DNA of 64,000 nucleotides, taken from Takakia lepidozioides (taxonomy: Eukaryota > Plantae > Bryophyta). The notes beneath the pieces are model-generated. The model saw only the letters and a list, made by a program, of their open reading frames with translations, did no database searches and was not told where the DNA came from. Positions 35,477 through 48,576 of this stretch are shown piece after piece. The position numbers and the translations under genes are program-made. The first letter of the stretch is position 1, and each line of letters starts with the position of its first letter. The DNA lies in the NCBI GenBank assembly GCA_030704615.1, contig CM060734.1:45880001-45944000 (forward strand), in the 5' to 3' direction.

Positions 35477-37176
35477 GTGCCACCAATTGCTGAGGAGAGT
35501 GCCGGTACGAGCACCAGTGATACTAGTGGGTATACAAGACGAGGTGTGCGGTTTAGGCCACCTTCACCTTCAGTGTCTTCTGAGGAAGGTTCAGACTCGG
35601 AGTCAAGAGGATTCTCGCCGAGGGTGCAAGTCATTTCCGTGCCATTGTTGTGGGACACGATGGAGGAGATGTATGGAGCTATCAAGGGGCCACGTAGGTA
35701 CTCTGGAGCTGTAAGCACCATCGAGCTTGATGACTTCATACAAAAGTTTGATAGTTGGTGTGATTAGCAGTCCGTAATCCACAACTGTTTACGCCTTTTA
35801 TGGCGTGGAAGGGGCTATTTCAGCACCTTGAGGGGCCGCCCATGGATGACTACCATGAGTTTAGGCGGGGGCATGAGGTGGAGATTGAGGAATGGCGGAT
35901 GTATTGGTCACCTGACTATGTCTCCATCACTAGAGGCACAAGGGTAGTGGTGACACCGGCAGCTACACCGGCAGCTTCTACAAGCAGCAGTGGGACGTCA
36001 AGTGGAACAGGAGCTGGGAAGTCCACCCAAGCTCCTGCTGCAGCACCAACACCCGTGCCAGCCTTTAACCCAGTTGTGGAGCTCTTCGAGGAGTTAAGGA
36101 GAAACTACCAGGGGATAAAGACAGAGAAATTGCGGAGTTTGCAAGAGTTCCAACGAAAGCCTGCTGAGAGTTTAAGGGAGGCTTACACGCGCATGAGGCG
36201 CTTGATAAACGTAACCCAAGGGGTTACAGAAGCTCAAGCAGTCCAATTCTGGTATGGGATATTGGACAAGGAGCTGAGGAGAAGGGTGCTGGATGTAACT
36301 CTCCTACAAGTAGCCCAACCCACCTTAGCAAACGTGTTTTTGCTGGCAGAGCGGAAATAGCTTAATATGGTGGAGAAGCGAGTGGTCATGGTGGGGTTCG
36401 GTAAGGAGACACAACGAAGTGGGGCTCCTAGCCAAGAACAACCACTACCCCAACGTGCTCAAGGCAACAAAGGGGCTCAGGCGAAGCCCAAGGAAGGACA
36501 GAGAGGATCTCAATTGCAGAGGTCACTTCCTTCATTCTCAGGCCAACAACAGTCGGGAGTGACATGTTGGGATTGTGGAGGACCCCATGTTAAGAGAGAT
36601 TGCCCGGAGAGAGGCAAAGGGCCGGCACAGGCACAGCCTACACAACTACAGTGTAGGCATTGTGGCAAGTATGGGCATAAAGAGACCCATTGTTATGACT
36701 TGCATCCTGAGCTACGGCCAGGCCAGTTCCAAGGGAACAATGGTGGCCGAGGACAAGGCAATGTAGTCCAGAGAGGTAGAGGAGGCAGAGGAGGCAGAGG
36801 TCGTGGTGGAGGTCGTAACCAAAACCAAGGAGCACAGGGTCACAGTCAAGGTCATGACCAAGGCATGGTAGATAGGCTTGCCCAGCTAGAGCATCGTCTT
36901 GCTACCATGGCCAATACTCATGTTGCGCCAGCTCCAAGGCCTGAGGTTCAAGCCCCACATACACAACCTCCTATGCCTAGGGAAGACCATATTGGTATGG
37001 GCTTTATGTGTGGAGCCGCACTTGCAGGACCATTGTATGTGGACTCTGCAGCTGCTGTCACTCAAGCAGCAACGCGTGCTCCTGAGCCAAGAGGAGCGGA
37101 TGTGGATTTTGATCCACAAAGAGGGGAAACAAGTCGGCAGACAAGGCTTCCACAATCTTTGACATTGGCTGAGACA
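35477..37176 (+). pseudogene. Gag with two CCHC zinc knuckles (degenerate)
   Basis: Capsid-like FQRKPAESLREAYTRMRRL; knuckles CWDCGGPHVKRDC and CRHCGKYGHKETHC; RGG-rich tract; stops at 35765 and 36358. Confidence 0.85.
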
Positions 37177-38577
37177 CTAGAAGCATTCGTGTCTTTTCCG
37201 ATTCGACTGCATGTCCGCGACCACTCCGGGAACCACTTGGTAGTAAACGGGACTACTGGAGAGTCGAAACAGACAATGTGGGCCCACGGGGGCATTTCAG
37301 ACGGCGGACAGAAGTGGGGTCAACGACTCCGGAGTCGTAGCAGAATTCCGGGCTATTTTACGAATTGCGTAAATACATAAAATTTGAAAAAGCCAAAATT
37401 ACAAGTGGTTGTAATTACTGCACATGCGACTACAAATTTTCTTTCCTAATTCGATTAATGGAATAAAGATATTTATTCATTAAAGTGAATATGTAGTCGA
37501 CTCAACGACTCCATGAACCACTGCGCATTCATTGCACCCATGACTCAGCAGCACATTTGCTGACGTGGCTTTCACAAAAAGAGGTAAACAAAATGTGGCC
37601 TTGGGGGAATAGATATTTTAATACGTGCTGCCTCCACCTGGCAGAGACAAGGATGCAAGTGCTGCGTCGGACTTGGGGGGACGTGGGAATGGAAATCCTG
37701 ACACGGCAAGGCCTTCGTATACTCACTTACGTGTAGCAGATCGCAGACCCCCAAATGCCTGGAGAGAAAGCCAGACGGCAGTCAATGCATGCACGGTTGT
37801 TTTGCACTAGTTGGGACGGAGTGGGGTGCAGAGGAGGCGTGCTGTGCCCGAGTTCGCATGCCTAGCATCCTGCAGCCGGCGGCTTTTGCACGTTGGGCAG
37901 CAGTACCCTCTGCTGTATGATTACCATTTGTGGTACAGACTCACCGGCCTCCCCTGTCCACTTGGGTCTTGGGACAGTGACTTATGGAGTATGTAGACAG
38001 AATTGCATGTCGCACAGGTACACCAAAATCTCTCATTCGCAAATTCTCGGTGTGTAGGTGTGTGTGTGAGGACCTCAACCTGGCATGGTGCGATGGGTGT
38101 CGAATGGACCCTTCTCTGCGATGGGAGAACCACTACAGTTGAGTTTGTTTTTGCTGAATCATTTGGCAGAGCACTGTGTACACTTCTCACACATCATGCG
38201 CATTTTCTCCAAGAATGCATGTAAAGCGGAGCCATACACGGCATCATTGCAGTGTGTTTCCTTCGCCTAATTTTGAACGAAAAAAAGTTAACGGATCCAT
38301 GTCAGTTGTGTGAATCACTACATCTAGTTGTCTGGAGGATTGTAAGTGGTTTAGGGTTTAACGTCTCAAAGTGGAAAAGGCCATAGTGTCGGATGCACGA
38401 CACGTGTTCATATTTGAAATCAACAACGGCCGGATCTTCACTACAGATCGGGGGGGGTGTGTGATCACACTCCCCTCCTTGTCCTTCTTTCCTCCTTTGC
38501 ATGTCTTGGTCTTTCTCGCTCGTCTTTGTCTTGGTCATGGTCTATGTCCTCGCTCGTCTTCATCTTTGTCATGGTCT

Positions 38578-48360: not shown

Positions 48361-48420
48361 TGTCACCTTCCACATGTGGATGGGATGATAGATCCCAACC
48401 TTGCAGTGGTACCTGCAGGG

Positions 48421-48576
48421 TTGCGTTGCATGCTATATGGGCATGATGGTGGCGCCGCAACCATGTTAGTGTGTGACAAATGCTCAAGGGGGTGGCACAT
48501 GGGATGCTTGACACCGCCACTTGAGGAGGTCCCTATCGGAGAATGGTTGTGTCCACGATGCCTTGGACAGAGGTAG
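48421..48576 (+). other. PHD finger at the integrase C-terminus
   Basis: CMLY...[33 protein letters not shown] fits the C4HC3 PHD pattern, with the second Cys changed to Tyr. Confidence 0.88.

What the first reader, a model, noticed from the sequence alone, without database searches (positions are those of the whole stretch)
35477..48576. RT-less Gypsy-derived element whose pol carries a C5 DNA methyltransferase where RT/RNase H should be
Seen: after removing the nested CACTA, one degenerate frame reads Gag(2xCCHC)-protease-DNMT(motifs I, II, IV PC, VI ENV, VIII, X)-integrase-PHD. Only about 300 bp separate the DNMT from the integrase, so there is no room for RT/RNase H. Known: DNMT capture by Gypsy and DIRS retrotransposons has been reported in dinoflagellates and a charophyte alga. 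Inference: this may be a distinct land-plant family that keeps particle, protease, methylase and integrase functions and borrows RT in trans, possibly methylating its own cDNA or insertion site. This copy is dead (several stops).
Basis: partly seen in the sequence, partly recalled or inferred. Interest (0 to 1): 0.92.

Follow-up and report, generated by a model that had tools for sequence, protein, structure and literature searches.

The report
Methylase retrotransposon with split terminal repeats
This is a dead copy of a plant retrotransposon that carries its own DNA methyltransferase; it lost its reverse transcriptase by a deletion that its relatives mostly lack, and the family's split end repeats suggest it likely inserts from a circular DNA, which ordinary LTR retrotransposons are not thought to do.

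Summary
The domains are real (Gag, protease, DNMT3-type methyltransferase, integrase, PHD; no RT/RNase H), but RT loss is not a family trait. Related contigs in 4 of 4 DNA runs diverge from this copy at 47062-47069; the join leaves integrase out of frame; 25 of 29 related loci holding both DNMT and integrase have RT and RNase H between them. Closest named relatives are in Marchantia, Calypogeia, Riccia and Sphagnum.

The element spans 32649-49371 as A-coding-B-A-B with a 4-bp target duplication, the layout reported for KnitGypsy-Dnmt3 of Klebsormidium. Across relatives, B starts at the polypurine tract, A ends at a self-complementary primer site, and the TG...CA integrase ends sit inside the B-A unit, joined by two bases. 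Likely mechanism (inferred): ordinary self-primed LTR reverse transcription, then circularisation, then integrase opens the circle at this internal junction. A conserved stop places the methyltransferase in the Gag-protease frame in two subfamilies. The DNMT is under purifying selection between subfamilies; its activity is untested.

Verdict: new land-plant variant of a known kind, with a testable circle-integration mechanism. Interest 0.62.

The parts
32645..32648 (.). left copy of the 4-bp target site duplication (AGCT)
32649..33013 (+). repeat A1: left end of the element (starts TGTCATG); likely promoter, R and U5
   Evidence: 97% identical to A2
32828..32842 (+). priming arm inside A1, predicted 5' end of the RNA
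   Evidence: 15-nt perfect complement of 33013-33027; 0 of 60 shuffles reach it; fold z -3.6
33013..33027 (+). predicted self-priming primer binding site, directly behind A1
   Evidence: same position in relatives
33028..35461 (+). long non-coding leader with short imperfect tandem repeats
35462..37174 (+). gag with two zinc knuckles, one frame change and one stop
37175..44668 (.). nested insert with CACTA-type 19-bp inverted ends; not part of the retroelement; no transposase match found
38904..40345 (-). broken LINE-like RT fragment inside the nested insert (not the element's own RT)
   Evidence: RVT_1 E 2e-8
44672..45856 (+). linker and aspartic protease (LLDSGA at 45167)
   Evidence: relatives match gag-asp_proteas weakly
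45872..46846 (+). DNMT3-type C5 cytosine methyltransferase, unpermuted motif order, two internal stops
47062..47069 (+). deletion junction: about 1.6 kb with RT and RNase H is missing; 8 bases fit both sides
   Evidence: loose ends in 4 of 4 runs; Pol homology starts at 47062-47110; spacing in relatives
47070..48576 (+). end of the RNase H-integrase linker, integrase (HHCC, D-D-E) and C-terminal PHD finger; two frame changes, two internal stops
48823..48832 (+). polypurine tract
48833..48918 (+). repeat B1 (ends CACGACA)
   Evidence: 95% identical to B2
48912..48927 (+). internal end-to-end junction CACGACA-AC-TGTCATG, predicted integrase cleavage site
   Evidence: same form in relatives
48921..49286 (+). 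repeat A2
49287..49371 (+). repeat B2: right end of the element
49372..49375 (.). right copy of the 4-bp target site duplication (AGCT)

Best explanation
The window holds a decayed, internally deleted copy of a Gypsy-type retrotransposon family that encodes Gag-protease-DNMT3-RT-RNase H-integrase-PHD and likely integrates from a circular DNA opened at a junction inside its terminal repeat. Shown: domain order in relatives, the deletion point, the A-coding-B-A-B layout, 4-bp target duplications, the conserved junction and the conserved complementary arms. Inferred cycle: (1) RNA starts about 170 nt into A1, about 30 nt behind a TATA box, and ends in A2. (2) Its 5' end pairs with the site just behind A1 and primes minus-strand synthesis without tRNA, as in Tf1. 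(3) Normal strand transfers give a linear DNA with two LTRs, each being B+A. (4) The ends are joined into a two-LTR circle. (5) Integrase cuts not at the LTR ends but at the CA-NN-TG junction between B and A, which gives A-coding-B-A-B; a one-LTR circle, or cutting at both junctions, gives the repeat-less form A-coding-B that is also found. (6) In two subfamilies a leaky stop would make Gag-protease-DNMT abundant and RT-integrase rare, so particles would hold many methyltransferases; their likely substrate is the element's own new DNA, and the PHD finger would steer integrase to chromatin. This copy lost the start of the second ORF, RT and RNase H across 8 shared bases and cannot make integrase.
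For: Deletion: loose ends on both sides of 47062-47071 in 4 of 4 runs, 2 samples; no common indel among related contigs in 46780-47320 that would restore the register (table 4); 25 of 29 informative loci have RT+RNase H there, 23 versus 3 after merging near-identical loci, and the 3 differ in breakpoint; the best 28 integrase relatives all carry RNase H and 24 carry RT. Ends: A-coding-B-A-B or its B-A-B tail in L050, L059/L061, L062, L063, L075, L081; junction CA-NN-TG in 7 of the 19 metagenome loci with a PHD end by pattern and in L049, L081, L082; exact 4-bp duplication in 6 of 8 elements with both ends, 3 of 4 bases in one, none in one. Self-priming: in 10 of 11 elements the longest inverted pair joins A+160-180 with the site behind A, with different sequences in three subfamilies; significant against shuffles in 6 of 11 (0 of 60), weaker in 4; L049 and L082 add 16 and 13 nt pairs; TATA-like motif 23-32 nt upstream of the arm in 9 of 11. 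Stop: same-frame TAG/TAA followed by CAA/CAG in 21 of 33 same-frame loci. DNMT: best PDB matches by sequence and fold are DNMT3A; PC motif in 45 of 52 and EN in 50 of 52 domains; median dN/dS 0.24 for 62 pairs at dS 1-2.5, like RT 0.24 and integrase 0.26.
Against: No circle, transcript start or enzyme activity was observed. The A2-B2 joint is precise in most copies (off by 1-2 nt in L063, most of B missing in L075), which end-joining does not require and a templated model also explains. The repeat-less form could arise by recombination between B1 and B2 after insertion. The RT counts come from other organisms' contigs, not the host genome (none held), and one search does not count how many host copies share the deletion. 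Among close copies DNMT dN/dS is 0.59-0.67, higher than RT (0.33-0.47). The Klebsormidium enzyme gave no methylation in yeast, judged inconclusive by its authors. The window copy has no TATA motif at the expected place and no stop at the position where L049 has one; a second subfamily (12 loci) also lacks the stop.
Confidence: 0.68

Rival explanations
1. One reading: a distinct RT-less family that keeps Gag, protease, methyltransferase and integrase under selection and borrows RT in trans.
For: RT and RNase H are absent here. All predicted cis signals remain, so RNA of this form could be copied by a helper. RT-less copies also occur elsewhere (L013, L055/L056 with a clean 4-bp duplication).
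Against: Integrase is out of frame and has lost its ORF start; related contigs branch off at the junction; the other RT-less copies have different breakpoints that cut into integrase; none of 119 integrase-PHD relatives has Gag-protease-DNMT-integrase without RT; the 46 that lack RT/RNase H are fragments or begin at DNMT, as in the distant RT-RH-DNMT-IN order.
Confidence: 0.05
2. The family circularises as proposed for DIRS/Ngaro elements: RNA runs from the start of A1 to the end of B2, and the internal B1-A2 junction serves as a splint that joins the cDNA ends; integrase then replaces the tyrosine recombinase.
For: Same A-coding-B-A-B layout as DIRS-type split repeats; the A2-B2 joint is mostly precise.
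Against: A polypurine tract sits exactly at the start of B1 and a self-priming site exactly at the end of A1, with a TATA box inside A: these are the signals of ordinary LTR reverse transcription with LTR = B+A, and they place the RNA start inside A, not at its edge.
Confidence: 0.15
3. The split repeats are an accident of this locus (tandem insertion, rearrangement or assembly error) and the family is an ordinary LTR element.
For: The window copy is old and nested; the host assembly could not be inspected.
Against: One 4-bp duplication flanks the whole structure, and the layout recurs in three sequence subfamilies from other samples and in Klebsormidium.
Confidence: 0.03
4. The replication model holds, but the methyltransferase acts on host chromatin or only binds DNA, and does not methylate the element's cDNA.
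For: No activity for the Klebsormidium enzyme in yeast; CpG depletion in the coding region (0.43-0.53) is no stronger than in host genes of the window (0.56-0.59) by much; related integrase-PHD elements without a DNMT annotation are common.
Against: Catalytic motifs are kept and the domain is constrained; its place in the Gag frame would put it inside the particle.
Confidence: 0.2

Closest known systems
KnitGypsy-Dnmt3 of Klebsormidium nitens (de Mendoza et al. 2018, PMC5890265)
   Same: Gypsy domain set, intronless unpermuted DNMT3-type domain in the polyprotein, DIRS-like arrangement of repeats, purifying selection on the DNMT.
   Different: Here in land plants (named relatives in four bryophyte genera). 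The text I read gives no replication mechanism, primer, target duplication, PHD or stop; the figure with the domain order could not be seen. No hit named Klebsormidium appeared, so sequence kinship is untested.
Tf1/Sushi and Tcn1 chromoviruses (Neumann et al. 2019, PMC6317226)
   Same: Ty3/Gypsy domain order; predicted self-priming without tRNA; occur in mosses.
   Different: They have two ordinary LTRs and a chromodomain; here a PHD finger, a DNMT and split repeats. That survey required paired LTRs with TG...CA ends, so it would miss this layout.
DIRS/Ngaro/PAT tyrosine-recombinase retrotransposons, including SymbioDIRS-Dnmt3
   Same: A-coding-B-A-B repeats; proposed circular intermediate; DNMT3 capture in Symbiodinium.
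   Different: No tyrosine recombinase here; a DDE integrase, protease, polypurine tract and 4-bp target duplications.
Ginger1 DNA transposons (Bao et al. 2010, PMC2836005)
   Same: Gypsy-like integrase, TGT...ACA ends, 4-bp duplication, sometimes PHD, no RT. RT-deleted repeat-less copies such as L055 look alike.
   Different: Ginger1 has 40-270 bp inverted repeats and CCGG-type targets, no Gag or protease; here 7-bp inverted ends, varied targets, direct repeats.
IS3/IS911 circle-junction transposition (recalled, not from a call)
   Same: DDE enzyme acting on two ends joined by a 2-3 bp spacer in a circle.
   Different: Bacterial DNA transposons; the junction is made by the transposase, whereas here it is stored inside the LTR and copied by reverse transcription.

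Membership tests
Ty3/Gypsy (Metaviridae-type) LTR retrotransposon | Order Gag-protease-RT-RNase H-integrase | tested here: met
   Met by the family; this copy lacks RT and RNase H by deletion
Ty3/Gypsy (Metaviridae-type) LTR retrotransposon | DDE integrase with HHCC finger, TG...CA ends, 4-6 bp target duplication | tested here: met
Ty3/Gypsy (Metaviridae-type) LTR retrotransposon | Two full direct LTRs at the ends of the integrated copy | tested here: not met
   A-coding-B-A-B or A-coding-B instead
Ty3/Gypsy (Metaviridae-type) LTR retrotransposon | RT phylogeny inside Ty3/Gypsy | not tested
   No named reference set was at hand; no RT tree built
KnitGypsy-Dnmt3-like (Gypsy-DNMT3) | DNMT3-type domain without DRM permutation inside the polyprotein | tested here: met
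KnitGypsy-Dnmt3-like (Gypsy-DNMT3) | DIRS-like A-coding-B-A-B repeats | tested here: met
   definition
KnitGypsy-Dnmt3-like (Gypsy-DNMT3) | Purifying selection on the DNMT | tested here: met
   dN/dS 0.24 between subfamilies, 0.12 for unsaturated window pairs; 0.6 among close copies
KnitGypsy-Dnmt3-like (Gypsy-DNMT3) | Clusters with the K. nitens sequences in a tree | not testable with these tools
   No Klebsormidium-named protein among the listed hits; main supplement too large to read
DIRS/Ngaro | Tyrosine recombinase as integrating enzyme | tested here: not met
   rve integrase; no recombinase match in the element
Troyka | CG...CG ends, 3-bp duplication, animal hosts | tested here: not met
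Ginger1 DNA transposon | 40-270 bp inverted repeats, CCGG-type target, no gag or protease | tested here: not met
Chromovirus (Tcn1) | C-terminal chromodomain | tested here: not met
   PHD instead
   Related contigs diverge at the junction and the frame is broken, but host copies sharing the join could not be counted

The most novel reading that the evidence does not exclude
A widespread green-plant lineage of LTR retrotransposons has moved its integrase sites from the LTR ends to a pre-built circle junction inside U3, so that it must integrate from two-LTR circles, and it loads its particles with a DNMT3 that methylates this circle before insertion. RT-deleted, repeat-less copies of it are a ready route to Ginger-like DNA transposons.
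Probability: 0.45. Interest if true: 0.85.

Novelty: new variant of a known kind. Interest (0 to 1): 0.62.

Why it matters
LTR circles are generally treated as dead ends and linear DNA as the integration substrate (own knowledge). A family whose structure only makes sense if a two-LTR circle is opened at an internal junction would be a natural exception, and it is present in Marchantia, where it can be observed. It also extends DNMT3-carrying retrotransposons from one alga to land plants, explains a set of 'hypothetical' methyltransferase gene models in bryophyte annotations as transposon parts, and shows why LTR finders that need paired LTRs miss the family. The open question from 2018, what a retrotransposon does with its own methyltransferase, becomes testable in a model plant.

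Tried and rejected
Host genome: none held, so no genome-wide copy count. Troyka: recalled as a three-LTR group; the paper shows otherwise; rejected. The RT in the nested insert as the missing RT: it is LINE-like, on the other strand and inside the CACTA-type insert; rejected. Viral contigs: no relative with the DNMT alignment or the Pol protein. Sequencing runs: no RNA holder listed; contigs of two runs guessed to be RNA matched in pieces with many differences, not used as evidence of expression. Summed depth is far higher on the element than on the flank, which shows many related copies, but the tool states it is no copy number. Earlier scan findings: none returned. CpG depletion as a sign of self-methylation: not distinguishable from host methylation. 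Structure model is of middling confidence (pLDDT 63; residues 209-307 poor) and was used only for the fold match. The DNMT tree is midpoint-rooted and has no host DNMT3 or Klebsormidium rows, so it says nothing on donor or direction. Literature searches for an earlier description in land plants or of the circle mechanism listed none; Repbase and most subscription papers were not searchable.
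Full report
Observation. Pfam finds Retrotrans_gag (below cut-off), DNA_methylase, Integrase_H2C2, rve and PHD, and nothing like RT or RNase H in the three + frames between methyltransferase and integrase. Motif positions are listed. The methyltransferase is of the DNMT3 type: the best of 47 PDB sequence matches are DNMT3A (E 7e-12), with DRM2 and bacterial HaeIII/HhaI far behind (E 8e-5 to 1e-2), and the predicted fold matches DNMT3A best (E 7e-14). 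A 7.5-kb insert with CACTA-type inverted ends splits gag from protease; it holds a broken LINE-like RT on the other strand and a NIF-phosphatase frame. The coding region is not one frame: there are four frame changes and nine internal stops.

Is RT loss a family trait? No. Proteins related to the DNMT at 58-68% identity come from Marchantia, Calypogeia, Sphagnum and unnamed assemblies (Riccia and M. paleacea). They read Gag-protease-DNMT and end soon after, or, in some gene models, go on into RT and RNase H. The best 28 relatives of the integrase-PHD part (up to 75% identity) all carry RNase H and 24 carry RT (the search was limited to proteins over 630 aa, which favours long frames); one is from Coleochaete. 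After merging near-identical loci the count is 23 to 3, and the 3 have different breakpoints. These loci come from other organisms. For the host itself I laid contigs of four DNA runs (two samples) on 46780-47320: in all four, related contigs leave the window sequence behind 47064-47071 and enter it before 47062. Pol relatives begin to align at 47062-47110, about 40 residues after RNase H, and 47051-47062 equals the first codons of the second ORF of L049. So about 1.6 kb, from the start of the second ORF to the RNase H-integrase linker, was lost across 8 bases that fit both sides. In relatives DNMT and RT share one frame (33 of 46 loci); here the join shifts the frame, and no common indel among related contigs offsets it. 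This copy could not make integrase. I could not count host copies that share the join, so a small non-autonomous burst stays possible. Distant relatives (34-38% identity, one named from the chlorophyte Hariotina) have the order RT-RNase H-DNMT-integrase-PHD, in which DNMT does sit next to integrase; the window does not belong there, as its DNMT falls in a supported clade (100/99) with the bryophyte sequences and follows protease directly.

The ends. The element is larger than flagged. Repeat A (365 bp) lies at 32649-33013 and 48921-49286 (97%), repeat B (86 bp) at 48833-48918 and 49287-49371 (95%), and AGCT flanks both ends. This A-coding-B-A-B layout is the one noted for KnitGypsy-Dnmt3 in a figure legend. 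It recurs in L059/L061, L062, L063, L075 (B2 short), L050 and L081. A second form, A-coding-B with no direct repeat, is seen whole in L016, L055 and L072 and at the 3' end in L010, L013, L052 and L080. Exact 4-bp duplications flank 6 of 8 elements with both ends; one has 3 of 4, one none. The B1-A2 joint is always CA-NN-TG between the same 7-bp inverted ends that form the outer termini. B begins at a polypurine tract in every locus with an intact tail. No tRNA-type primer site follows A1; instead the bases behind A1 are complementary to A+160-180 in 10 of 11 elements, with different sequences in three subfamilies; 6 of 11 beat all 60 shuffles, 4 are shorter and not significant alone, L016 has lost the arm. 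The window's stretch folds with z -3.6. A TATA-like motif lies 23-32 nt upstream of the arm in 9 of 11 elements, not in the window or L004. Self-priming is described for Tf1/Sushi and moss Tcn1 elements. L082 assembles as a circle with one B-A unit and two open frames; this may be a collapsed repeat and is not proof of a real circle.

Mechanism. These signals define an ordinary LTR, B+A, between polypurine tract and primer site, but with the integrase ends in its middle. Reverse transcription would give B-A-coding-B-A. The integrated form A-coding-B-A-B is this molecule closed into a two-LTR circle and opened at the upstream B-A junction; A-coding-B follows from a one-LTR circle, from cutting both junctions, or from later recombination between B copies. 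Only the first form keeps both R copies and could replicate again. All of this is inference from sequence. The main rival is a DIRS/Ngaro-type splint model (recalled), which fits the layout but not the internal TATA box, primer site and polypurine tract. In 21 of 33 same-frame loci one stop, followed by CAA or CAG, separates Gag-protease-DNMT from RT-RNase H-integrase-PHD; the context resembles the leaky stop of tobacco mosaic virus (recalled). The methyltransferase would then be made at Gag level and packaged. Twelve loci of another subfamily lack this stop, and the window has none at that place.

Is the DNMT functional in the family? Catalytic motifs are kept in most of 52 domains (PC 45, EN 50, HRxR 43). 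Pairwise dN/dS (Nei-Gojobori, 15 redundant loci dropped first, pairs not independent) is 0.24 for DNMT at dS 1-2.5 (62 pairs), against 0.24 for RT (11), 0.21 for RNase H (126), 0.26 for integrase (19) and 0.40 for protease (89); of 65 window pairs 34 are saturated and the rest have median 0.12. Among close copies the ratio is 0.59-0.67 for DNMT and 0.33-0.47 for RT, as expected in part from decay after insertion, but it may also mean weaker constraint. In the 2018 work DIRS-borne DNMT3 methylated CG in yeast while the Klebsormidium enzyme did not, which the authors call inconclusive. Methylation of the element's own new DNA is my preferred function, untested.

Comparison and novelty. It works like KnitGypsy-Dnmt3 and meets three of its four testable features; kinship in a tree could not be tested. 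It is not DIRS, Troyka, Ginger1 or a chromovirus. 'Gypsy-DNMT3' occurs in two papers of the library. Searches listed no description in land plants and none of the circle mechanism; Repbase and most subscription journals were not covered. What I saw of each paper: PMC5890265, passages, sections 9 and 10 whole, a search of three supplements, not its figures or main supplement, which may show domain order, PHD or further species; bioRxiv 2026.05.21.726589, part 1 of 5 and passages; PMC12440569, parts 1-3 of 5; PMC6317226, PMC2836005, PMC12344493 and bioRxiv 363937, passages.

Verdict. The headline claim, an RT-less family, fails; the copy is a deletion derivative. The family behind it is a land-plant variant of a kind known from one alga, and its ends point to integration from a circle. 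Interest 0.62; 0.85 if the circle and self-methylation model is shown.

Noticed in passing
window 37175-44668: CACTA-ended insert with no transposase match; holds a NIF-type phosphatase frame (41975-43144, E 4e-13), an unnamed 321-codon frame (40594-41559) and a broken LINE-like RT on the minus strand (38904-40345).
   Followed up: partly
window 22196-30241 (-): Intron-split ABC transporter gene (ABC_membrane E 2e-9; two nucleotide-binding repeats at 21677 and 25381); its first coding piece lies about 2.4 kb from the element's left end.
   Followed up: partly
window 56558-63650 (-): Second Gypsy-like element: integrase at 61862-62557, RT pieces near 63333-63600, a run of N at about 62780-63290, long unnamed frames at 57.3-60.5 kb, and arrays of a 10-bp unit at 56.6-56.8 kb and 61.2-61.5 kb.
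   Followed up: no
window 55132-55380 vs 22221-22489: A 270-bp inverted, 68% similar copy of an ABC transporter exon, possibly a paralogue or gene fragment.
   Followed up: no
window 9138-9704: Frame with a DUF3504 match (E 3e-7), a domain I recall as linked to Crypton-type recombinase elements.
   Followed up: no
window 1320-3554 and 5198-5773: Pieces of a zinc-type alcohol dehydrogenase/quinone reductase-like gene (ADH_N E 7e-5) and a frame that looks like an early light-induced protein (my reading; no Pfam match).
   Followed up: no
window 12178-12947 and 14695-16005: Tandem repeats of about 182 bp and 215 bp, with short inverted repeats nearby.
   Followed up: no
   Followed up: partly
proteins P0039, P0041, P0045, P0098-P0135: Distant green-algal-type relatives carry the DNMT between RNase H and integrase, so the domain has changed place within the lineage or was captured twice; some add a G-patch between DNMT and integrase.
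   Followed up: partly
L055 59-6641: RT-deleted, repeat-less copy with TGT...ACA ends and a clean 4-bp duplication; looks like a Ginger-type DNA transposon though its integrase is cut.
   Followed up: partly
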